From Minisyncoccota bacterium (GTDB lineage Bacteria; Patescibacteriota; Minisyncoccia; Moranbacterales; UBA1568): a stretch of DNA of 64,000 nt. The DNA lies in the NCBI GenBank assembly GCA_051306005.1, contig JBPPMJ010000003.1, positions 161,764-225,763 of the forward strand. The letters are read 5' to 3'. The notes under the pieces were generated by a model. The model searched no databases. It was not told the origin of the DNA and saw only the letters and a program-made list of their open reading frames with translations. Positions 4,561-49,360 of the stretch are shown piece after piece. Position numbers and translations under genes: made by a program. Each line of letters opens with the position of its first letter. Positions within the stretch are counted from its first letter, which is position 1.

Positions 4561-5688
4561 ATGGTCTTCGGTTTTCGTAAAACACATTTCTTGGGTATTG
4601 ATTTCGGTACGGCGTCCATCAAGGCGGTAGAGCTTTCTTTGCAAGGTGATCGTCCTGTTTTGGTAAACTATGGTCAGATTGGTTTGGCAGATTTGGAAAA
4701 AAAAGGTGCGTTACCGGGAACATCTTATGATGATGAGGTGAAACGTCATCTCAAAGCGTTGATGAAGGAAATGCATCCTAAAAGCCATACAGCTCATGTG
4801 GCAATGCCTGCTTTTACCGGATTGATTTCTTCGATTGAGTTCCCGGTAATGGGGGCTTCTGAATTACAAGAAGCGGTGCGTTTTGAAGCACACAAATACA
4901 TCCCCTCAGCATTGGATGAAGTGGCATTGAGTTGGGAAGTGATGGATACGCAAGAGGCGCCAGACGGAACAAAAAAAATGGATGTGTTGTTGGTAGCAGC
5001 TTTGAACAAAGAAGTAGTACGATATGAAGAATATATAGCGAGCGTCGGCTTGTCTGTAGAGTTTCTGGAGCTTGAAACATTTTCTATCGCTCGTTCTGTC
5101 ATTGGATCCGAGCAAAATTTATTTTTAGTGATTGATATTGGATCACGAGCGACCAATTTAATTCTGATTCAACATGGCACCGTGCGTATGAGTCGCAATG
5201 TAGATGTAGGCGGGAGAGATATTACGCGTGTTTTGGCAGAAAGTCTCAATATTACTCAAGATAGAGCTAAGATTATTAAAAAGAGTGGCAAAGATTTTCT
5301 ACTTGCCCCCGAATCAGTTTTAATATTTCCTGGTTTGCAAACCATCGCCAGTGAAGCAGGGAGAATGCTCAGTGCGTATCAAGCAAAATATCCTGATATT
5401 CGTTGTCAAGAGGTCATTTTGTCAGGTGGATCAGCACAATTTTATGGTTTGACACAGTATTATGCCAATCTTTTGAATCTACCTGTTACTTTGAGTGACA
5501 CCTGGAAAAATATTGATCACGATCCTCGTTTGACGCCAGTATTAGCTCAAAAAAGCACTTCTTTTTCTGTGGCTCTGGGAGCAGCTTTGCGAGGTATTGA
5601 TATAATGCGACAAAAAAAGACCACTTCTCAGCAGAACAAATCTACAAGAAGTTTTTCATTCAAGGAATTGATGACAAAAAAATTATAA
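4561..5688 (+). CDS. pilM: type IV pilus assembly protein PilM (actin-like ATPase fold)
   Basis: N-terminal 'LGIDFGTASIKAVEL' is PilM/FtsA-like. About 375 aa. It is followed by pilN/pilO-like genes. Start is placed at the ATG 2 codons inside the TTG-initiated ORF. Confidence 0.85.
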   Translation: MVFGFRKTHFLGIDFGTASIKAVELSLQGDRPVLVNYGQIGLADLEKKGALPGTSYDDEVKRHLKALMKEMHPKSHTAHVAMPAFTGLISSIEFPVMGASELQEAVRFEAHKYIPSALDEVALSWEVMDTQEAPDGTKKMDVLLVAALNKEVVRYEEYIASVGLSVEFLELETFSIARSVIGSEQNLFLVIDIGSRATNLILIQHGTVRMSRNVDVGGRDITRVLAESLNITQDRAKIIKKSGKDFLLAPESVLIFPGLQTIASEAGRMLSAYQAKYPDIRCQEVILSGGSAQFYGLTQYYANLLNLPVTLSDTWKNIDHDPRLTPVLAQKSTSFSVALGAALRGIDIMRQKKTTSQQNKSTRSFSFKELMTKKL

Positions 5689-32917: not shown

Positions 32918-35900
32918 TCAGACAACAGAATCTATGCCTTCGATACTTTTGATTTGCGCGATCTGTTTTTCGGTTGGTGCCAGTGAGAAGGGTGTTTCTA
33001 GTGTGGTGTTTTGAATGCGTACGGAAACTTTGCGTGATCCTTGTGGTAGTGTTTTCAGGAATTGCGAAAGATGTTCAATGGTGCGTGTAGGCGCATCATG
33101 ACGAATGGTCACGACAAGATGTGACGCCGTATAAATGTTTGGTGTTGATGTGTTATGAGAAGTGTGTGCGGTATATTGTTGACGAGTCACTTCCGCCCGT
33201 GCAAATTGATGTAATGTTTGGGGTGATATTTTTTCTAATCCTTCGGCAAGACACTTGAGTACGCCATCTTTGTGTGAGACACGCGCATTGACCAAGACTA
33301 TTTCATCCTCAATCCATAACTCACCAGTGCGTTCTGCTGTTTTACCAAAGACCAATAATTCAATACGACCTGTCATATCTTCTAAATTAACAAAGTACAT
33401 GATGCTTTGATTTTTGGTAATGACTTTGCGTACGCTCGCAATAATACCACCAAGCCGAACAGTTGCATTTTCTGGTTGTTTGTCGAGAGTATGAATGGGC
33501 GTCGTTATTTTTTGAAAATATTCTTGATACTCTGCCACAGGATGACCACTGACATAGAGCCCGAGTAATTCTTTTTCCCATCCAAGAGTTATCTTTTTTG
33601 TAGCTGGAATAGCTGGAACAAGCGTAATTTTTCCCGTCACGATAGTCAAATCACCAAAGAGACTATTTTGATGAGTTTCTGCAATTGATTTCAGGTTTTT
33701 GGAAAATTGGAGAATAGCATCTATACTGGCAAGGAGTTGGTTGCGTTCACCGAAGCCATCCAAAGCGCCGACCTTGATTAGGGCCTCCAGAGATTTTTTG
33801 TTCAAATCTTTGGTGTGCACGCGTTCGATGAATTGTTCCAAATTTGCATAGGGGCCACCACGTTTTCGTTCTGTGACAATATTCTTAGCAACAAGGTACC
33901 CCACATTTTTGATGGCATTAAGGCCAAAGCGGATATGAGTGTCGGTAGGTCCTTGGATGACTGAAAATTCCTCGAAACTGGTATTGATTGATGGAGGGAG
34001 CACTTCAGTCCCCATTTCTCTGGCCTCGCGGACTTCGATAGCAATTCTGTCGATATTGTCCTGATCAGATGTTAAGAGAGCTGCCATAAATGCGACAGGA
34101 TAATGTGCTTTGAGATAGGCGGTCTGATATCCGACCAAAGCATAGCAGGCCGCATGTGAACGATTGAAGCCATACCCGGCGAATGGTTCGATAAATGCGA
34201 ACACTTTTTTTCCAACCGCTTTCCCGACACCGGTTTTTTCACATCCATCAATGAATTTTTCCCGTTGCTCAGCGACGAGTTCTTTAATTTTTTTCCCCAC
34301 TGCTTTACGTAATACGTCGGCTTCTCCGAGACTAAAACCAGCCAAATCTCGTGCAATCTGCATCAATTGTTCCTGATAGACGGCAACACCATATGTGTTT
34401 TCGAGAATTGGCTCAAGAATCGGATGTAGATACTTGATTTTTTTGGTACCACGTTTGCCAGCGATGAAATCGGGAATATATTCCATCGGTCCTGGACGAT
34501 AGAGGGCGACCATTGCGATGATATCTTCAAAGACGGTCGGTTTCAATTGTTTGAGATAACGTTTCATACCAGAACTTTCCAATTGAAATACACCTGTGGT
34601 ATGGGCATCTTGGAGCAGTTGAAACGTCAGCGCATCATCGAGAGGTATCTTTTCAATATCAATGATGACATCGTGTGTTTTCCGAACAATTCGTAGAGTA
34701 TTTTGGATAATGGTCAGGTTTTTCAGACCAAGAAAATCCATTTTTAAGAGGCCGATTTTTTCGATAGCATTCATTTTAGTGGACGCCGGATATTGCGTGA
34801 CTACGCCTTGGCGACTTCCAGAGATATTTTGTAATGGAGTGTATTCTGTGACTGGCTCCTTGGTAATCACAACACCACAGGCGTGCATAGAAGCATGACG
34901 CGCAAGCCCTTCGACTTTGAGCGCCACATCAATCAGTTTCTTAGCATCCGCATCGTCTGCGTACCATTGTTTGAATTCCTGAACTTCGTTCAAAGCCTTT
35001 TGAATCGATGTGAACATGGGGATCATTTTTGAAGTTTTGTCGCACAGGCTATACGGATATCCGAGCGCACGGCCAACATCTCGAATCGCTGCACGGGCTG
35101 CCATGGTGCCAAAAGTGATGATTTGCGCCACATGATCATTGCCATATTTTTCTCGGACATAATTGAGTACGTCATCACGTCGATTGTCCGCGAAGTCCAT
35201 ATCCACATCGGGCATCGAGATACGTTCAGGATTGAGAAAACGTTCGAAGAGGAGTTTGTATTTTATGGGATCCAAATCGGTGATGCCGGTAAGATAAGAG
35301 ACGAAACTTCCGGCTGCCGATCCTCGTCCCGGACCAACCACCACGCCATTATTTTTTGCCCAATTAACGAAATCTTGCACAATGAGAAAATATGACGCAA
35401 AACCGGTTTTTTCAATAACACCCAATTCATAGTCCATGCGCGCTTGTTGTTCGGAGGTGATGCTTGTTTGTGGAAAACGTTTGGTAAGCCCCACTTTACA
35501 GAGATCACGCAAGAGTGTGTCCGCCGTTTTTCCCACAGGTAGAGGGAATTCTGGCAGGTGATTCTCTCCCATGTGAATGGTCAGTTGTATTCGTTCAGCA
35601 ATTTTTTGAGTATTCGTGATAGCTTCAGGCACGTTTTTGAAAATTTCACTCATTTCTTCTTCCGAACGAAGAGACAGATCCAGGGTCATCATACTGAAAC
35701 GTTCATGATCCGAGACTTTTTTGTTGTCACGGATACAGAGGAGGATGTCTTGAATGGGAGCATGTTCTTTTTTGATATAATGTACATCGGAAGTAGCTAC
35801 CAACGGGATACCTGTTTCGCGGCTGATTTGGATAAGCCCTTGATTGGCGATCATCTGATTTTCATAAGCGATATTTGGCCCGAGCTCAAGATAGAAATTA

Positions 35901-36400
35901 TTTTTCCCAAAAATGGTTTGATATTCTCGAGCTACCGCCTTGGCACGCTCATAGTTTCCGTAGATAATTTCAGAGGGTATTTCTCCTTGCAGGGATCCAG
36001 AGAGAGCAATCAATCCTTCACTGTATTTTTGAAGGAGTTCTTTGTCGGTACGCGCCTTATAATAAAAGCCGTCCAATTGCGCGACGGAAATAATTTTCAT
36101 GAGATTTTTGTACCCTACTTCATTTTGTGCGAGTAGTACAATCTGATGCCGGCGTCTGTCTTCGGCAGTATTGTTTTTGCTGGTCAGATCTTTACAGACA
36201 AGCATTTCCGCGCCGAGAATAGGCTTGATGCCAAATTCTTTGGCTTTACTATAAAACTCAATTGCGCCATAGAGTGCGCTTGTGTCAGTGAGTGCGAGAG
36301 AAGTCATGCCAAATTCTTTGGCCTGCACCAAAAGCTCCTCAATTTTTGGGAGAGCAGTTAAGAGGCTGTAGTGAGAGTGGACGTGAAGGTGGGTGAACAT
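32918..36400 (-). CDS. dnaE: DNA polymerase III alpha subunit DnaE
   Basis: PHP domain 'FTHLHVHSHYSLL', polymerase core, an OB fold and 1160 aa length. Confidence 0.95.
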   Translation of the reverse strand: MFTHLHVHSHYSLLTALPKIEELLVQAKEFGMTSLALTDTSALYGAIEFYSKAKEFGIKPILGAEMLVCKDLTSKNNTAEDRRRHQIVLLAQNEVGYKNLMKIISVAQLDGFYYKARTDKELLQKYSEGLIALSGSLQGEIPSEIIYGNYERAKAVAREYQTIFGKNNFYLELGPNIAYENQMIANQGLIQISRETGIPLVATSDVHYIKKEHAPIQDILLCIRDNKKVSDHERFSMMTLDLSLRSEEEMSEIFKNVPEAITNTQKIAERIQLTIHMGENHLPEFPLPVGKTADTLLRDLCKVGLTKRFPQTSITSEQQARMDYELGVIEKTGFASYFLIVQDFVNWAKNNGVVVGPGRGSAAGSFVSYLTGITDLDPIKYKLLFERFLNPERISMPDVDMDFADNRRDDVLNYVREKYGNDHVAQIITFGTMAARAAIRDVGRALGYPYSLCDKTSKMIPMFTSIQKALNEVQEFKQWYADDADAKKLIDVALKVEGLARHASMHACGVVITKEPVTEYTPLQNISGSRQGVVTQYPASTKMNAIEKIGLLKMDFLGLKNLTIIQNTLRIVRKTHDVIIDIEKIPLDDALTFQLLQDAHTTGVFQLESSGMKRYLKQLKPTVFEDIIAMVALYRPGPMEYIPDFIAGKRGTKKIKYLHPILEPILENTYGVAVYQEQLMQIARDLAGFSLGEADVLRKAVGKKIKELVAEQREKFIDGCEKTGVGKAVGKKVFAFIEPFAGYGFNRSHAACYALVGYQTAYLKAHYPVAFMAALLTSDQDNIDRIAIEVREAREMGTEVLPPSINTSFEEFSVIQGPTDTHIRFGLNAIKNVGYLVAKNIVTERKRGGPYANLEQFIERVHTKDLNKKSLEALIKVGALDGFGERNQLLASIDAILQFSKNLKSIAETHQNSLFGDLTIVTGKITLVPAIPATKKITLGWEKELLGLYVSGHPVAEYQEYFQKITTPIHTLDKQPENATVRLGGIIASVRKVITKNQSIMYFVNLEDMTGRIELLVFGKTAERTGELWIEDEIVLVNARVSHKDGVLKCLAEGLEKISPQTLHQFARAEVTRQQYTAHTSHNTSTPNIYTASHLVVTIRHDAPTRTIEHLSQFLKTLPQGSRKVSVRIQNTTLETPFSLAPTEKQIAQIKSIEGIDSVV

Positions 36401-36446
36401 GATTTGTGAGTGTTACAACCTAAATTGCAAATGCCATATTCATCTC

Positions 36447-36479
36447 AAAAATCTAAAAGAAAAACCGCATGAGAAGCGG
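36447..36479 (-). terminator. orphan intrinsic terminator (minus strand) downstream of the decayed gene
   Basis: On the minus strand, the CCGCTTCTCATGCGG hairpin is followed by TTTTTCTTTTAGATTTTT. Confidence 0.5.
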
Positions 36480-36637
36480 AGTTGATGACGTGAGATTTGA
36501 CATAATTATGTGTTCCTTCATAGTTCAGGATATACCGTCGGATTTTGCAGGGAAATTTATGATCTTATTGCTAGTATAGCAGAAAAAAAAGATCCATTCC
36601 ATAACAGTGTCATGGAAGAGAATATGACTGGATCATC

Positions 36638-37140
36638 TTACTGCATGTGTTGACTGACTTTGCGTCGCAATTGGCTGAGGACATTTGCTTGTCCAGTCCA
36701 ACCATATTCTCGCGATATCGCCAGAATATGTTCCGGTAAGAGTTCCAGAGAAACGGATACTTCCGCTGGTGTTTTACTGAGTATCTGCAGTTGTTCCCCT
36801 AAACGAGTAGGCCTCCCATCAAAAAACTGCAGGAACTCTTCGTAATCTCTGGCCCGAATATCGATCGTTTTGACACGTCCACTATCAACGGGTTTTTCCA
36901 GGGGTTGATCGCTATCAGGACATCCACGTATCTACACAGAGTAGATCGGAAACAACATGAAACCGCCATCAGGATAGTAACAATCCACGCCAATGACATT
37001 TGGTAGGAATCCGTAGCTACGCGAACGTTTACGGGCATCTATGCCAAAAAGAAATAGATCCACCATAAAGCCTCGTCTCGCCAGCCTCATTCCACGAGTA
37101 TTTTTATTGATGCTCTCAATGAAGAACGTCAGGATCCTTC
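36638..37140 (-). pseudogene. frameshifted, decayed gene remnants of unknown function
   Basis: Three partially overlapping reading-frame fragments on the minus strand are separated by frameshifts or stops. The most N-terminal frame contains '...GFMVDLFLFGIDARKRSRSYGF...', which loosely resembles a GIY-YIG motif. The next frame contains 'VDVLIAINPWKNPLIVDVSKRS'. The last frame reads 'IDIRARDYEEFLQFFDGRPTRLGEQLQILSKTPAEVSVSLELLPEHILAISREYGWTGQANVLSQLRRKVSQHMQ*'. There is no intact ORF. Confidence 0.5.
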
Positions 37141-37709
37141 AAAAACCGTTACTGGTATTTGGGCATCAGTAATTTTTTTCAATGACCATCCGCGGATGGG
37201 ACTGATTTTAATAATGCATCAAATTTTGCCTTGCGAGCGATCTCCCGCGCTCTTTTTGGCCCAAAAATGGATTTTGTGGTAGTAAGGAGAGATTTGATAT
37301 GACTATTGCGCGCGTCGGGATATCATCTGATTTGTTGAAAGAACACATATCGAGACAATATCTCGACATTTCATAATACACTCTTTTTACAGAAATTTCA
37401 ATGCATTATAATGTTGGTGAATCCTGAACCCATTGTCTCATCGTCTCTTTTTGGAGTAGGATGGTATCATACGCTTTCTTGCTTCTATGATGTGTATGCG
37501 TCCTGACAGAAAGGAGAAGTTATGAACAAGCACATTCTGGAATACTTGCAAGGAGTCATTTTGATGTTATCCCGGGTGCAGAAGTATACGTCGTAATATG
37601 AAAAATTCAGTAACCGGCTGAAAAAAGCATTTCACTACTTAACGCAGAATGAAGTCTTCGTTACTGTATTAAATAAAGGACATTAAATTTTAGAATTTTT
37701 GCCTGCGTT

Positions 37710-38429
37710 ATGCAAGAAACAACGTTTAAGAAAGAGTTGAGTCTGCTGAATGGAACACCTGTTTTTATTGTGGGCGTGGATGAGGTGGGGCGGGGGCCAT
37801 TGGCAGGACCAGTCGTGGCTACTGCGGCCTGCTATAAAGATGCGGGTTTCCATATTCCAGAAGGACTGGAGAAAGAATTTTCGCTTATCCGTGATTCCAA
37901 GAAACTTTCAGAGAAACAGCGTGAGAGAATATTTGGAATAATTTTGAAATATTTTTACACGGGTATCGGTATTGTTAATGCCGAAACAATTGATCGAGTA
38001 AATATTTTACAGGCGACATTCTTGGCGATGAAAAGCGCTGTCACGACATTGAAAAAACAGATGAAGCAAAACCAAGAGGCATTGACGAATGAGGAATTGT
38101 TACTTCTTGTGGATGGTAATCAAGAAATACCACATTGTTCGTATAGACAGGAATCCGTTGTTGGCGGAGATAGTATTGTGAAGTCTATCGCGGCGGCATC
38201 TATCGTTGCGAAAGTGACTCGAGATCAAATGATGGATGCGTACGACAAGCAATACCCTGGATATGGTTTTGTCCAGCATAAAGGGTATGGAACAGTGATG
38301 CATATGAATGCGTTACGTCGTTTGGGACCATCACCCATTCACCGTCTTTCATTTCGTCCTGTGTTACTTGCTTTACCCGAAAATGTTAATAAACGGTTTG
38401 CGAATGTGCTCCATCCAAAAAAACGTTGA
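37710..38429 (+). CDS. rnhB: ribonuclease HII
   Basis: 'VGVDEVGRGPLAGPVVAAA' with the catalytic DEDD context. 239 aa. Confidence 0.9.
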   Translation: MQETTFKKELSLLNGTPVFIVGVDEVGRGPLAGPVVATAACYKDAGFHIPEGLEKEFSLIRDSKKLSEKQRERIFGIILKYFYTGIGIVNAETIDRVNILQATFLAMKSAVTTLKKQMKQNQEALTNEELLLLVDGNQEIPHCSYRQESVVGGDSIVKSIAAASIVAKVTRDQMMDAYDKQYPGYGFVQHKGYGTVMHMNALRRLGPSPIHRLSFRPVLLALPENVNKRFANVLHPKKR

Positions 38430-46561: not shown

Positions 46562-49360
46562 ATGCGAGGGAAACCAGCAGTGATTCAGATTCGCGGAGCG
46601 CGGGTCAATAATTTGAAAAACGTGAACGTGGATATTCCACGTGATGCACTGGTCGTGATTACCGGACTTTCCGGTTCCGGCAAGTCTTCTTTGGCGTTTG
46701 ATGTATTGTTTGCTGAAGCAAATCGACGCTATGTCGAGTCGCTTTCTTCTTATGCACGCAATTTTTTGGATGGCTTTGACAAGCCGGATGTCGATGCGAT
46801 ACACAATTTGTCACCAGCTATTTCCATTGATCAAAAAAGTGTTTCACGAAGTCCGCGTTCGACGGTCGGTACGATGATTGAGGTTTATGATTATTTACGT
46901 ATTTTGTTTGCCAAAGTGGGCGTACCGCATTGTCCGATGTGCGGAGAACGCTTGTGGCGTAAAAGTGCACATCAGATTTTGACAGAAATCCTCGCATTGC
47001 CAGATGAGACGCCATTAATTTTTGTTGCAGAAAGTCGCCTCTTAATGGAAGAGAAAAGTGAGCGGGACGTGCTTGCGCTTATCAATACCTGGGGTTATCC
47101 GCGTGTATTATTTCGTGGAGAATTATTGCCTATTGCTGATGCTATCTCACTTGCCTCTGTCACTGAAGTATCACCTATCGCGGTTGTGATAGATCGTATA
47201 TCACTCAATTTGACCCGTCCAGATAAGGAGCGTCTTTTGGATTCTATACAGACTGCTTTTCGCGTTGGACAGGGTACTTTTACATTATGTATCGGAGAAA
47301 AAGATACACAATACCTCTATCATGAAGAATATCGATGTGAACCTTGTCAGATTCATTTACCGGAATTAACACCAAGTCACTTTTCTTTTAATAGTCCAGA
47401 AGGGGCGTGTGAGAAATGTTCCGGACTGGGCGTGACGTTGGAATTTGATTCTGATCTAGTTATACCCAATAAAAACCTCTCCTTGGTAGAGGGAGCCATT
47501 CGTCCGTGGAACAAGATGAACGGGGAACGTCATAATGGGCAGGGACCGATGCAGTTTTTACGAGAATTAGCTCGCCAGCATAAGTTTTCTCTTGATGTAC
47601 CAATCAAAAAACTCTCTGCGAAACAGTATAATATTTTATTATACGGCACATCGGAACAAACAGAGACATTCCCTGGAGTACTGGCATTGTTGGAAAAAAA
47701 ATATCGCGAGACAAAATCTGATCATACTCGTTCTGATATTGAGTCTTATATGTTGAAAAAAAAATGTCCTCAATGTCATGGGCGACGTCTGAAGCGCTTT
47801 GCGCTTGCGGTCACAGTGGATACATGGTCTCTGGATGCATTGGTACAGATGAATGTTCGACTTTTTCTTGAGACGATGGTTGGTCTTCAGAAGAAACTTT
47901 TACAGACGTGTGAACGTGATATGATCAATCCGTTGTTTCGGGAAATGATTATGAGAATGCAAGCAGTGGAAAAAGTTGGTTTGGGCTATCTTCAGCTTGC
48001 ACGTAGCGCGGATACTCTTTCTGGCGGAGAAGCGCAACGTATTCGATTGTCCGTACAAATGAAATCAGGTCTTTCAGGGATTATTTATGTTTTGGATGAA
48101 CCATCGGTAGGTTTACACAGTCGCGATACTGAAAAACTCATTCAGGCCCTTGAAGAGTTACGTTCTGCCAATAATTCATTAATTATTGTTGAACATGATA
48201 TTTCTATTATGCGACGTGCTGACTACATCATCGATATGGGACCGGGCGCAGGGAGTGAGGGTGGAGAAGTGATGTTTGCTGGCACACCACGTGACTTGAT
48301 GCGATCAAAATTTCTTACCGGCCAATATTTAGCCGAAAAACGTGTTGTTTTTGAACATAAAAAAACTCGTAGACCAAGCAAAAATACCCTTACCATTCAT
48401 GGTGCCACGGAACATAATTTACGAAATATTGATGTCAAGATTCCGCTCGGTATGTTGGTTGCGGTTGCTGGGGTTTCAGGATCCGGGAAATCAAGTTTGG
48501 TGCGTGATATTTTATCGCGTTCATTATCTCGTCATTTTTATCGTTCCAAAGCTGAGCCGGGAGCACATACAAAAATCACAGGAATGGATTTGATTGATAA
48601 AGTCATTACCGTTAATCAGGATCCGATTGGTCGTACGCCACGTTCCAATGCAGCAACCTATACTGGTGTTTTTAGTTTGATTCGTGATTTGTTTGCTGGC
48701 ACACCAGAAGCTGAACGTGAAAAGTATTTCGCAAGTCATTTTAGTTTCAATATGCGTGGAGGACGTTGTGAATCCTGTCAAGGTGGTGGTTTGCGCAAGA
48801 TAGAAATGTATCTTTTGCCAGATGTCTATGTACCATGCGAAGTCTGCCAGGGAACCCGTTACAATATCAAGACGCTGGCTATTGAGTATCGGGGAATGAA
48901 TATCGCTGATGTTTTACGTATGACTGTAAGCGAAGCACACCATTTCTTTCTGGATCAACCGATGATTGAGGAAAAATTACGCGTTTTGGAGGAAGTAGGC
49001 TTGGGCTATTTGGTGCTGGGACAGAGTGCTACCAATTTGTCGGGCGGAGAAGCACAGCGTATTAAGTTGGCGACGGAATTGGCACGTAAATCGACGGGAA
49101 AAACACTCTATATACTTGATGAACCGACTATTGGTTTGCATTTTGAGGATGTGCGATGCTTATTGGAAGTTTTAGAAGCATTGGTTGATAAAGGAAACAG
49201 TGTGTTGGTTGTAGAACACAATCTTGATGTTATACGTGCTTCAGATTGGGTACTGGAATTGGGTCCAGATGGAGGTGATGCTGGTGGAGAATTGATCTTT
49301 GCTGGACCACCAGAAAAATTGAAAAAATGCAAGAAAAGTTTCACGGCAAAATATTTATAA
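46562..49360 (+). CDS. uvrA: excinuclease ABC subunit A
   Basis: '[38 protein letters not shown]', two ABC modules, zinc-finger cysteines and 932 aa length. Confidence 0.95.

What the first reader, a model, noticed from the sequence alone, without database searches (positions are those of the whole stretch)
36401..37709. 1.3-kb gene-free gap beside dnaE holding frameshifted remnants of a dead gene (possible GIY-YIG-like nuclease), an orphan terminator and a 14-bp palindrome
Seen: in an otherwise tightly packed window, no intact ORF longer than 80 aa lies between dnaE and rnhB. On the minus strand three protein-like fragments are linked only through frameshifts or stops: '...GFMVDLFLFGIDARKRSRSYGF...', '...NPWKNPLIVDVSKRS...' and '...DYEEFLQFFDGRPTRLGEQLQILSKTPAEVSVSLELLPEHILAISREYGWTGQANVLSQLRRKVSQHMQ*'. 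The last is followed by a good minus-strand terminator (36447-36479). There is also a plus-strand hairpin plus T5 at 37235-37257 and a perfect palindrome CCATCCGCGGATGG at 37186-37199. Inference: a recently inactivated gene, possibly a free-standing homing-endonuclease-like or accessory gene, is decaying in place. The 'G-F-M...L-F-G...ARKRSRSYGF' stretch is only loosely GIY-YIG-like, and I cannot name the family.
Basis: partly seen in the sequence, partly recalled or inferred. Interest (0 to 1): 0.55.

Follow-up and report, generated by a model that had tools for sequence, protein, structure and literature searches.

The report
Dead enzyme gene beside dnaE leader
The gap holds the badly decayed remains of an uncharacterised sugar-isomerase-like enzyme gene that related bacteria still keep intact at this exact spot, and the "orphan terminator" belongs to a small conserved RNA hairpin-plus-terminator leader in front of the DNA polymerase gene dnaE that matches no Rfam family.

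Summary
The 1,309-bp gap (36401-37709) is real and is the largest ORF-free stretch in the window. The organism is a Moraniibacteriota (CPR) MAG. The gap has three parts.

(1) 36638-37321, minus strand: a pseudogene. Relatives carry an intact 244-256-aa gene in exactly this slot (rnhB <-|-> gene -> dnaE -> miaA). The window copy aligns over almost its full length at 42% identity. It needs 5 frameshifts and 2 in-frame stops, and it has lost conserved core residues. The decay is old, not recent. The family has no Pfam match and folds as a xylose-isomerase-like TIM barrel. It is not GIY-YIG.

(2) 36455-36581, minus strand: a conserved dnaE leader, made of an extended -10 box, a 42-nt hairpin with covarying pairs, an invariant ATG with a short ORF, and an intrinsic terminator. 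I found one copy upstream of dnaE in every related locus examined (over 30), none elsewhere, and no Rfam match. It is probably a transcription attenuator. The mechanism is inferred, not shown.

(3) 37322-37709: unexplained spacer.

The palindrome is a by-product of the P-I-R-G-W codons and occurs at chance frequency.

The parts
36638..37321 (-). Pseudogene of a Moraniibacteriota xylose-isomerase-like TIM-barrel protein. Stop codon TAA at 36638-36640. The probable former start codon now reads ATC at 37319-37321.
   Evidence: Family HMM against the three minus-strand frames covers HMM positions 2-249 in frame order 1>0>2>1>0>1. A frameshift-aware alignment to intact P0121 (aa 3-244) gives 92/217 identical residues, with 5 frameshifts near 37275, 37210, 37082, 36969/36942 and 36920. 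Intact orthologues sit in the same slot.
37129..37131 (-). In-frame stop codon replacing the invariant Trp64 of the family (FEGPWRN reads FEGS*RS).
37087..37089 (-). Second in-frame stop codon in the reconstructed reading path.
36920..36980 (-). Collapsed core of the pseudogene. About 25 residues are missing, including the near-invariant Glu128 (FVRETD) and His150 of the DTWH motif.
36583..36617 (-). The dead gene's own terminator-like hairpin (36597-36617) and its T-run (36583-36591).
   Evidence: Terminator scan and coordinates. Intact relatives have a hairpin with a T-run at the same relative place, before the leader promoter.
36573..36581 (-). Extended -10 promoter box TGCTATACT of the dnaE leader.
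   Evidence: A TATACT-like box lies at a fixed distance of about 20 nt upstream of the hairpin in the 27 distinct instances. This rests on position conservation only, with no transcript data.
36513..36554 (-). Conserved leader hairpin. P1 is 36549-36554 paired with 36513-36518. The 5' internal loop GCAAAA is 36543-36548. P2a is 36540-36542 paired with 36524-36526. The P2b hairpin is 36528-36536. The 3' internal loop CUAUG is 36519-36523. The window copy has C.A mismatches at A36517 and A36525.
   Evidence: Covariance model R1 scores 66.5 bits, E 4e-20, over 36497-36560, the only copy in the window. Covariation is shown. The window copy is the least stable of 29 instances.
36453..36503 (-). Short leader ORF of 16 codons (MSNLTSSTPLLMRFFF). 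Its ATG lies 9 nt after P1 and it reads through the terminator.
   Evidence: An ATG lies 8-12 nt after P1 in 29/29 instances. The ORF reaches the terminator in 29/29, against 16/29 and 24/29 for the other two frames.
36455..36479 (-). Stem-loop CCGCUUCUCAUGCGG (36465-36479) and T-run (36455-36464).
   Evidence: A hairpin with a T-run lies at a fixed distance, with the T-run 48-67 nt after P1, in 29/29 instances.
37186..37199 (.). A 14-bp perfect palindrome. It is a by-product of the P-I-R-G-W codons of the pseudogene.
37235..37257 (+). Plus-strand hairpin with T5, antisense to the N-terminal remnant of the pseudogene. No transcription unit was identified upstream of it on that strand. Probably chance.
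37347..37401 (-). Promoter-like site (37373-37401) and a perfect 10-bp inverted repeat (37347-37369), just upstream of the pseudogene.
   Evidence: Not conserved in any locus held.
37322..37709 (.). Unexplained spacer of about 390 nt between the pseudogene and rnhB. Relatives with the intact gene have 108-133 nt here. It contains a 24-codon plus-strand ORF (37522-37596) behind an AAGGAG box.
   Evidence: No similarity to any held locus or to the rest of the window. No Pfam hit. Folding z-scores of -0.39 and -0.65. No Rfam hit.

Best explanation
The gap holds two recognisable features and a leftover spacer.

(a) Pseudogene, 36638-37321, minus strand. This is a unitary pseudogene. Its ancestor encoded a protein of about 245 aa from a small Moraniibacteriota family with a xylose-isomerase-like (beta/alpha)8 barrel and a Glu-Asp-His-Glu set of near-invariant residues. 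It is therefore presumably a metal-dependent sugar or sugar-phosphate isomerase/epimerase-type enzyme. The gene is ancestral to this slot (rnhB <-|-> gene -> dnaE -> miaA). Most lineages have lost it completely. Here it is caught in late decay: 5 frameshifts, 2 stops, catalytic residues gone and the start codon probably lost.

(b) dnaE leader, 36455-36581, minus strand. This is the conserved 5' leader of dnaE: promoter, a 42-nt irregular hairpin, a short ORF whose ATG sits 8-12 nt after the hairpin, and an intrinsic terminator 48-67 nt after the hairpin. It most likely acts as a transcription attenuator that sets how much transcription reads into dnaE.

My preferred mechanism is inferred, not shown. 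The hairpin, alone or bound by an unknown ligand or protein, occludes the ribosome landing site of the short ORF. When the ORF is translated, the ribosome covers the 5' arm of the terminator, and RNA polymerase continues into dnaE. This resembles pyrBI-type coupling. When the ORF is not translated, the terminator forms.

(c) 37322-37709 is residual divergent-promoter or spacer DNA with no recognisable function.
For: Pseudogene:
- tblastn of the intact L007 gene against the gap gives E 1.4e-23 in three frames.
- The family HMM covers positions 2-249 across the frames.
- Frameshift-aware alignment gives 92/217 identity.
- Four further syntenic intact orthologues exist.
- Divergence exceeds that of intact orthologue pairs.
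- The gap is identical in two other assemblies.

Family and fold:
- AlphaFold model with pLDDT 86.9 and pTM 0.85.
- The best Foldseek PDB hits are L-ribulose, D-allulose and D-tagatose 3-epimerases, UlaE and PA2260, with E down to 2e-5 and TM 0.55-0.58.
- Near-invariant E128, D147, H150 and E213 in 47 relatives. In the model, E128, D147 and E213 end beta-strands and H150 starts the next helix.
- A weak profile hit to MJ1311 aligns DTWH with DIGH.

Leader:
- A 98-nt block is 82% identical to L005/L006 while the rest of the gaps do not align.
- There are 27 distinct pattern-selected instances, all 78-266 nt upstream of dnaE.
- The motif is also present in all 8 distinct protein-selected loci where dnaE neighbours rnhB: L003, L005, L007, L168, L170, L172, L174, L175.
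- There is one copy per locus, and a single significant copy in the 64-kb window; the next best match scores 13 bits, E 0.16.
- RNAalifold finds the same helices independently.
- Five pairs show compensatory changes, in 20-22 cells, and 0/500 shuffles reach the covariation score. Slid controls score lower.
- The P2b loops include GCAA and UUCG tetraloops.
- The ATG and the terminator sit at fixed distances in 29/29 instances.
- In L064, L112, L168 and L172 only about 18-26 nt separate the T-run from the dnaE ATG. This leaves little room for a separate promoter.
Against: Pseudogene: nothing substantial. The enzymatic function of the family is unknown. Pfam PF01261 does not detect it.

Leader mechanism:
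- There are no expression data.
- The genome shows no Shine-Dalgarno enrichment (14% of 51 long ORFs against 14% background). Reading the P1 3' strand GAGGGAA as a Shine-Dalgarno sequence is therefore doubtful.
- The open frame of the short ORF barely differs from another frame (29/29 against 24/29).
- The peptide sequences are not conserved, and no regulatory codons are evident.
- Pairing between the P1 3' strand and the terminator 5' arm is no better than shuffles overall (mean z -0.12).
- L168 has a GATAAT box 6 nt before the dnaE ATG, which could give an independent leaderless transcript.
- Most instances were collected with a sequence pattern, which biases conservation estimates in the pattern columns.
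- The window's own hairpin is destabilised: -3.2 kcal/mol against -8.1 to -15.4 in the others. In this genome the element may work differently or poorly.
Confidence: 0.8

Rival explanations
1. The leader hairpin is the aptamer of a riboswitch, or the binding site of a regulatory protein, that controls the terminator directly. The short ORF and its ATG would be incidental or secondary.
For: The hairpin is conserved, with covarying stems and nearly invariant internal loops (GCAAAA / CUAUG). It sits right after the promoter and before a terminator. It is associated with a single gene. The genome lacks general Shine-Dalgarno use.
Against: No general antiterminator complementarity was found. The ATG 8-12 nt after the hairpin is kept in 29/29 instances although the spacer sequence varies widely. 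At about 42 nt with only 12-14 pairs the hairpin is small for an aptamer. No ligand can be deduced from one regulated gene.
Confidence: 0.3
2. The element is an independent small gene, either an sRNA of about 115 nt or a small-protein gene of 8-50 aa. It would have its own promoter and terminator and merely neighbour dnaE.
For: It has its own -10 box and its own terminator. In many lineages 60-200 nt of AT-rich spacer follow the terminator, which could hold a dnaE promoter.
Against: It is always on the dnaE strand immediately upstream and never elsewhere. In L064, L112, L168 and L172 the dnaE ATG follows the T-run by about 18-26 nt. The peptide sequences are not conserved.
Confidence: 0.1
3. 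The hairpin sequence acts at the DNA level, as a palindromic operator for a transcription factor overlapping the start of the dnaE transcript.
For: It is an inverted repeat next to a promoter.
Against: What is conserved is complementarity, not sequence: C-G changes to U-A in P1 and A-U to G-C or C-G in P2b. The arms are 30 bp apart and nested. The loops are of RNA tetraloop type, GCAA and UUCG.
Confidence: 0.05
4. The minus-strand fragments are a live gene, read through programmed frameshifts or recoding, or broken only by sequencing errors.
For: Homology extends over the whole length of the family.
Against: There are five frame changes and two stops. About 25 core residues are deleted, and the near-invariant W64, E128 and H150 are lost. 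The sequence is identical in three assemblies. Divergence exceeds that of intact orthologues.
Confidence: 0.02
5. The remnant is a GIY-YIG or homing-endonuclease-like mobile gene.
For: None beyond the loose G-F-M...L-F-G resemblance.
Against: There was no Pfam or NCBIfam hit to the translated remnant at E up to 10. The stretch aligns to MGFVADTIFFG of the TIM-barrel family. The gene is syntenic and vertically inherited, not mobile.
Confidence: 0.01

Closest known systems
Xylose-isomerase-like TIM-barrel enzymes (sugar and sugar-phosphate isomerases/epimerases such as D-allulose, D-tagatose and L-ribulose 3-epimerase, UlaE, PA2260, MJ1311; the superfamily also holds endonuclease IV)
   Same: The predicted (beta/alpha)8 fold matches these structures best. 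Near-invariant Glu, Asp-x-x-His and Glu sit at or just after the C-terminal ends of strands. The D-T-W-H motif aligns to D-I-G-H of MJ1311.
   Different: Sequence identity is only about 10%. The Pfam model does not detect the family. The protein is shorter, at about 245 aa. No substrate is known. The family is tied to the rnhB/dnaE neighbourhood only in Moraniibacteriota; a distant relative (L177) sits elsewhere. The window copy is dead.
Ribosome-mediated transcription attenuators with a leader ORF overlapping the terminator (E. coli pyrBI leader; trp-type leaders). This comparison rests on my own knowledge.
   Same: The order is promoter, short ORF, intrinsic terminator, structural gene. The ORF reaches or crosses the terminator stem in 29/29 instances.
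   Different: There are no regulatory codons and no conserved peptide. An additional conserved hairpin lies directly upstream of the start codon. The regulated gene is the replicative polymerase, for which I know of no such leader and found none in three full-text paper searches. Translation has not been shown.
Transcriptional riboswitches and protein-binding leader RNAs
   Same: A conserved structured element with covariation and invariant internal loops sits at the 5' end of an mRNA and is followed by a terminator.
   Different: No Rfam family matches it. No general antiterminator pairing was found. It is very small. It has a single-gene regulon in one candidate phylum. The ligand is unknown.
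Unitary pseudogenes in reduced genomes (gene loss caught in progress)
   Same: The remnant is syntenic with intact orthologues, and multiple disabling lesions have accumulated.
   Different: Nothing unusual, except that CPR genomes are compact and rarely retain 0.7 kb of dead sequence. Most sister lineages have already deleted it, leaving gaps of 240-480 bp.

Membership tests
Moraniibacteriota TIM-barrel family (alignment A1: P0121-P0130) | Sequence homology over the full length | tested here: met
   HMM positions 2-249 are recovered from the three minus-strand frames. The best piece has E 1.5e-21. Identity is 92/217.
Moraniibacteriota TIM-barrel family (alignment A1: P0121-P0130) | Conserved position between rnhB (divergent) and dnaE (same strand) | tested here: met
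   Same slot in L007/8, L168/9, L170/1 and L172/3.
Moraniibacteriota TIM-barrel family (alignment A1: P0121-P0130) | Uninterrupted ORF that keeps the near-invariant residues W64, E128, D147, H150 and E213 | tested here: not met
   Five frameshifts and 2 stops. W64 is replaced by a stop, E128 is deleted and H150 is lost. D147 and E213 are kept. It is therefore a pseudogene, not a functional member.
Xylose-isomerase-like TIM barrel superfamily (Pfam PF01261 AP_endonuc_2 and relatives) | Match to the Pfam family model | tested here: not met
   No hit at E up to 10 for six intact family members and relatives: the L007 orthologue, P0121, P0126, P0135, P0136 and P0141. P0137 gave only a sub-threshold ORF_12_N hit.
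Xylose-isomerase-like TIM barrel superfamily (Pfam PF01261 AP_endonuc_2 and relatives) | (beta/alpha)8 fold closest to members of the superfamily | tested here: met
Xylose-isomerase-like TIM barrel superfamily (Pfam PF01261 AP_endonuc_2 and relatives) | Glu / Asp(-x-x-His) / Glu metal-ligand set at the C-terminal ends of strands | tested here: inconclusive
   E128, D147, H150 and E213 are at least 90% conserved in 47 relatives. E128, D147 and E213 lie at strand ends and H150 starts the next helix. The equivalence to the known ligands rests on a weak alignment to MJ1311 (E 0.03) and on my knowledge of the superfamily.
GIY-YIG nucleases / homing endonucleases | GIY-YIG domain match; mobile, sporadic distribution | tested here: not met
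   No Pfam or NCBIfam hit. The gene is syntenic and vertically inherited.
Riboswitch | Conserved structured element with covariation in a 5' leader | tested here: met
   Five covarying pairs, 91.7% of cells paired, and 0/500 shuffles reaching the score. RNAalifold agrees.
Riboswitch | Expression platform with mutually exclusive terminator and antiterminator | tested here: inconclusive
   A terminator is present in 29/29 instances. Antiterminator pairing is no better than shuffles overall (mean z -0.12), and is good only in one subclade.
Riboswitch | Specific binding of a small ligand | not testable with these tools
   Needs in-line probing or ITC.
Riboswitch | Membership of a described class (Rfam 15) | tested here: not met
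   No match at E up to 1 over the window element. In four other loci only sub-threshold hits elsewhere, none on the motif where coordinates were checked.
Leader-peptide transcription attenuator (pyrBI/trp type) | Short ORF with a conserved start codon that overlaps the terminator | tested here: met
   The ATG lies 8-12 nt after P1 in 29/29 instances, and the ORF reaches the terminator in 29/29. The control frames reach it in 16/29 and 24/29, so the open frame alone is weak evidence.
Leader-peptide transcription attenuator (pyrBI/trp type) | Regulatory codons or a conserved peptide | tested here: not met
   The peptides are unrelated in sequence and range from 8 to 50 aa.
Leader-peptide transcription attenuator (pyrBI/trp type) | The ORF is translated and translation changes termination | not testable with these tools
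   Needs ribosome profiling or reporter fusions.
Independent sRNA gene | The downstream gene has its own promoter | tested here: inconclusive
   Only about 18-26 nt separate the T-run from the dnaE ATG in L064, L112, L168 and L172. L168 has a possible GATAAT box. The other lineages have long spacers.

The most novel reading that the evidence does not exclude
The 42-nt hairpin with its invariant GCAAAA/CUAUG internal loops is the sensor of a previously undescribed regulatory RNA class, either a riboswitch or a protein-binding leader. Through a short ORF and a terminator, it would tie synthesis of the replicative DNA polymerase III alpha subunit to a cellular signal in Moraniibacteriota. I know of no earlier cis-regulatory RNA dedicated to dnaE, and native regulatory RNAs defined in the Candidate Phyla Radiation appear to be few.
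Probability: 0.3. Interest if true: 0.65.

Novelty: new member of a known kind. Interest (0 to 1): 0.4.

Why it matters
The pseudogene itself is ordinary. It records the loss of an uncharacterised enzyme gene in a streamlined CPR genome, and it marks the rnhB|dnaE slot as variable. That slot is empty in some lineages, holds the TIM-barrel gene in others, and holds a second unknown family in others.

The leader matters more. Regulation in Patescibacteria is almost unexplored, and I know of no dedicated leader RNA for dnaE in any bacterium. Here a compact, strongly conserved and experimentally tractable element sits in front of an essential replication gene. The hairpin is 42 nt, and the whole leader including ORF and terminator is about 115 nt. 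If it is an attenuator, it offers a handle on how these ultra-small cells couple replication capacity to physiology. It could also serve as a native regulatory part for genetic tools in CPR bacteria. In addition, the covariance model flags the dnaE 5' end in Moraniibacteriota MAGs. In L174, for example, the called rnhB start overlaps the motif.

Tried and rejected
- Searching the 5.8-billion-protein collection with the conceptual 166-aa translation of the remnant found nothing. The remnant is too diverged for the word index. Homology only appeared through the syntenic orthologue.
- A protein-based scan of genome contigs with RnhB found no relatives.
- Pfam and NCBIfam on the remnant, and Pfam on intact family members, gave no family.
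- Rfam found nothing over the gap, and nothing on the motif in four other loci. There is no tRNA or tmRNA in the gap.
- The GIY-YIG idea was rejected (see the membership test).
- Reading the TAG at 36932-36934 as the only lesion, that is one frame with one stop, was rejected. The HMM shows the N-terminal two-thirds lie in other frames.
- Reading the P1 3' strand as a Shine-Dalgarno sequence was weakened by the lack of Shine-Dalgarno enrichment in the genome.
- A classical antiterminator between the P1 3' strand and the terminator 5' arm is not supported overall.
- K-turn and type I toxin readings of the leader were considered and dropped. The strand geometry does not fit a k-turn, and many of the peptides are not hydrophobic.
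- The region 37330-37709 was tested as a structured RNA, with z-scores of -0.39 and -0.65. It was also tested as a remnant of the second slot family, with no tblastn signal in the gap.
- Three full-text paper searches found no description of the motif or of a dnaE leader in CPR. A fourth query failed on syntax.
Full report
**Setting.** The window comes from a Moraniibacteriota (Minisyncoccota, Candidate Phyla Radiation) MAG. Its RNase HII is 100% identical to an NCBI protein of that name, and its closest relatives at 64-75% identity are labelled Moranbacteria. dnaE (32918-36400, minus) and rnhB (37710-38429, plus) are divergent. The 1,309 bp between them hold no ORF longer than 79 aa. This is the largest stretch of the window not covered by an ORF of at least 120 aa; the next is 445 bp. 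Two Logan assemblies from other sequencing runs, L001 and L002, are 100% identical across the gap. The lesions described below are therefore not errors of a single assembly.

**The dead gene.**
- Searching with the conceptual product found nothing in Pfam, NCBIfam or the large protein collection.
- The answer came from synteny. Contigs carrying RnhB homologues show the same divergent dnaE|rnhB arrangement.
- In L007/L008 an intact 246-aa gene without a Pfam domain lies between them on the dnaE strand. tblastn of that protein against the gap gives E 1.4e-23, split over three frames.
- The gene has only ten close relatives in the 5.8-billion-protein collection, and they align well.
- Three more of these (P0125, P0126, P0128) sit in exactly the same slot: rnhB <-|-> gene -> dnaE -> miaA.
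- A family HMM run on the three minus-strand frames recovers model positions 2-249 in frame order 1>0>2>1>0>1.
- A frameshift-aware alignment to P0121 gives 92/217 identities over residues 3-244. It needs five frameshifts (near 37275, 37210, 37082, 36969/36942 and 36920) and two in-frame stops. One stop, at 37129-37131, replaces the invariant Trp64; the other is at 37087-37089. About 25 core residues are lost.
- The position of the family's Met now reads ATC, at 37319-37321.
- The remnant is 35-37% identical to orthologues whose DnaE N-terminus is 72-83% identical. Intact pairs keep 44-61% at 71-90% DnaE identity.
- The decay is therefore old, not recent.

**What the gene was.**
- An AlphaFold model of P0121 built from the family alignment is confident (pLDDT 86.9, pTM 0.85) and shows alternating strands and helices.
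- Foldseek against the PDB ranks L-ribulose, D-allulose and D-tagatose 3-epimerases, UlaE and PA2260 first, with E down to 2e-5, TM 0.55-0.58 and about 10% identity.
- An exhaustive profile search finds 82 representative clusters at E<1e-3, but only 6 below 1e-30.
- In an alignment of 47 of these, S9, P41, W64, E128, D147, H150, E213 and P216 are at least 90% conserved. In the model, E128, D147 and E213 end beta-strands, and H150 starts the helix after D147.
- The profile's only PDB sequence hit is MJ1311 (E 0.03), with DTWH aligned to DIGH.
- Pfam detects none of these proteins.
- The family is thus an undescribed branch of the xylose-isomerase-like TIM barrels. This assignment rests on fold and motif, and the activity is unknown. 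Nothing supports a GIY-YIG or homing-endonuclease origin.
- A distant relative (P0135, L177) lies in an unrelated neighbourhood.

**The 'orphan terminator' and the dnaE leader.**

*How it was found.* blastn of the gap against the orthologous gaps gave an unexpected result. A 98-nt block (36491-36587) is 82% identical to L005/L006, while the rest of those gaps do not align.

*Shared layout.* Read on the dnaE strand, all relatives share the following:
- a TATACT-type -10 box, often preceded by TG;
- about 20 nt later, a hairpin UUCCCU-GCAAAA-CCC-NNN-(2-3 bp + loop)-C-GGG-CUAUG-AGGGAA;
- an ATG 8-12 nt further on;
- an intrinsic terminator;
- a variable AT-rich spacer, and then the dnaE ATG.

*Distribution.*
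- Two pattern scans returned 27 distinct instances that are followed by dnaE at 78-266 nt. The other pattern hits were chance or coding matches.
- The motif is also present in every locus that was fetched through a protein, and so without regard to the motif, and where dnaE neighbours rnhB: L003, L005, L007, L168, L170, L172, L174 and L175.
- A covariance model built from 29 sequences finds one significant copy in the 64-kb window (36497-36560, minus, 66.5 bits). The next best match scores 13 bits, E 0.16.
- It finds one copy per related locus, always before dnaE, and none in loci from other CPR groups.
- Rfam 15 has no match at E up to 1 on the motif.
- Three full-text paper searches found no description.

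*Structure.*
- RNAalifold on an unguided MAFFT alignment predicts the same helices.
- Five pairs show compensatory changes. P1 has C-G to U-A at two positions, P2a has C-G to U-A, and P2b has A-U to G-C or C-G. These occur in 20-22 cells. 90.5-91.7% of cells are paired, no shuffle out of 500 reaches the covariation score, and slid registers score much lower.
- The 5' strand of P1 and all of P2b lay outside the search pattern, so this covariation is not produced by the sampling.
- The P2b loops include GCAA and UUCG tetraloops.

*Window coordinates.*
- -10 box: 36573-36581.
- Hairpin: 36513-36554.
- Short ORF: 36453-36503.
- Terminator: 36455-36479.
- The dead gene's own terminator-like hairpin is a different one, at 36597-36617.

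**How the leader probably works.**

*What is shown.*
- The position and order of the parts are fixed.
- The ATG is kept in 29/29 instances although the preceding spacer varies widely.
- The terminator T-run lies 48-67 nt after P1 in 29/29.
- The short ORF ends within or beyond the terminator stem in 29/29.
- In L064, L112, L168 and L172 only about 18-26 nt separate the T-run from the dnaE start. In those lineages at least, dnaE is most simply transcribed by read-through.

*What I infer.* The element is a transcription attenuator in which translation of the short ORF masks the 5' arm of the terminator, and the hairpin gates that translation.

*Caveats.*
- The other frames are also fairly open (16/29 and 24/29).
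- The peptides are not conserved.
- The genome shows no Shine-Dalgarno enrichment.
- Antiterminator pairing is not supported overall.
- No transcript data were available.

A direct riboswitch or protein-binding mechanism is the main rival.

**An oddity of the window copy.** Its hairpin carries two G-to-A changes relative to its nearest relatives, which create C.A mismatches in P1 and P2a. It is the only one of 29 instances whose minimum-energy fold is not the consensus hairpin. Its energy is -3.2 kcal/mol, against -8.1 to -15.4 for the others. Whether this reflects relaxed selection, as for the neighbouring gene, or a constitutively open leader is unknown.

**Remaining items.**
- The palindrome at 37186-37199 spells S-P-I-R-G-W of the invariant NPLRGW motif. 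Intact relatives are not palindromic there. The window has five such 14-bp palindromes, about the number expected by chance.
- The plus-strand hairpin with T5 at 37235-37257 lies antisense inside the N-terminal remnant. No transcription unit was identified upstream of it on that strand.
- The stretch 37322-37709 is about 270 nt longer than in relatives with the intact gene. It matches nothing held. It does not fold better than shuffles. It contains a promoter-like site, a 10-bp inverted repeat and a 24-codon ORF behind AAGGAG without any family hit. It remains unexplained.

**Verdict.** The family guess, the 'recent' timing and the assignment of the terminator are wrong. The pseudogene is ordinary. 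The conserved dnaE leader that the terminator belongs to is the noteworthy element: a candidate new cis-regulatory RNA in a phylum where I know of none described.

Noticed in passing
Loci L005, L052, L066, L080, L104, L116, L127, L139, L142, L170 (spacer between leader terminator and dnaE ATG); window 36401-36454 for comparison: The spacer just upstream of the dnaE start codon carries lineage-specific short tandem repeats, mostly with a period of 7 or 14 nt (16 nt in L104). An example is ATACGAAATACATA repeated about 3 times in L066. In 10 of 27 spacers the repeat is longer than in 95% of shuffles. The window's spacer has none. Function unknown.
   Followed up: partly
L112, L118, L122, L163, L031/L136/L011 (between rnhB and the dnaE leader): A second uncharacterised protein family of 236-248 aa, with no Pfam hit and 42-78% mutual identity, occupies the same rnhB|dnaE slot on the dnaE strand in other lineages. 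The slot is empty in still others. No remnant of this family is in the window.
   Followed up: partly
window 36513-36554 (A36517 and A36525, minus strand): The window's copy of the leader hairpin has two C.A mismatches. It is the only one of 29 instances that does not fold into the consensus hairpin as its minimum-energy structure (-3.2 kcal/mol against -8.1 to -15.4).
   Followed up: partly
whole window (51 ORFs of at least 150 aa): There is no Shine-Dalgarno enrichment upstream of start codons (14% against 14% background). Many genes have a TATAAT-like box a few bases before the ATG, which suggests leaderless or very short-leader mRNAs.
   Followed up: partly
window 37522-37596 (+): A 24-codon ORF (MNKHILEYLQGVILMLSRVQKYTS) lies 6 nt after a perfect AAGGAG. 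It is followed by TAA and 29 more sense codons in frame. It has no Pfam hit and no similarity to any held locus. It could be the remnant of another small gene.
   Followed up: partly
window 37347-37369: A perfect 10-bp inverted repeat (ATATCGAGAC AAT GTCTCGATAT) lies directly downstream of a promoter-like site (37373-37401, minus) and upstream of the pseudogene. It is operator-like and is not conserved in relatives.
   Followed up: no
L004 (same RnhB protein as L003): The gene calls on this contig show dnaE as a C-terminal fragment plus wrong-strand ORFs. However, the N-terminal 400 aa of DnaE still align at 81%. This is probably due to assembly errors or frameshifts in that contig.
   Followed up: no
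L174 5001-5819: The called rnhB start (272 aa) overlaps the dnaE leader motif at 5012-5075. The true start is probably about 100 nt downstream, so the covariance model can correct such annotations.
   Followed up: no
L174 about 10531 onward and L175 9862-10702: A reverse-transcriptase gene (RVT_1) lies a few kb downstream of rnhB in both relatives, and in L175 it sits next to a bAvd-like gene. This looks like a diversity-generating retroelement. It is absent from the corresponding part of the window.
   Followed up: no
window 48825-48870 (+): A weak covariance-model hit (13.2 bits, E 0.16) that matches only the P1 arms and tail. Judged to be chance.
   Followed up: no
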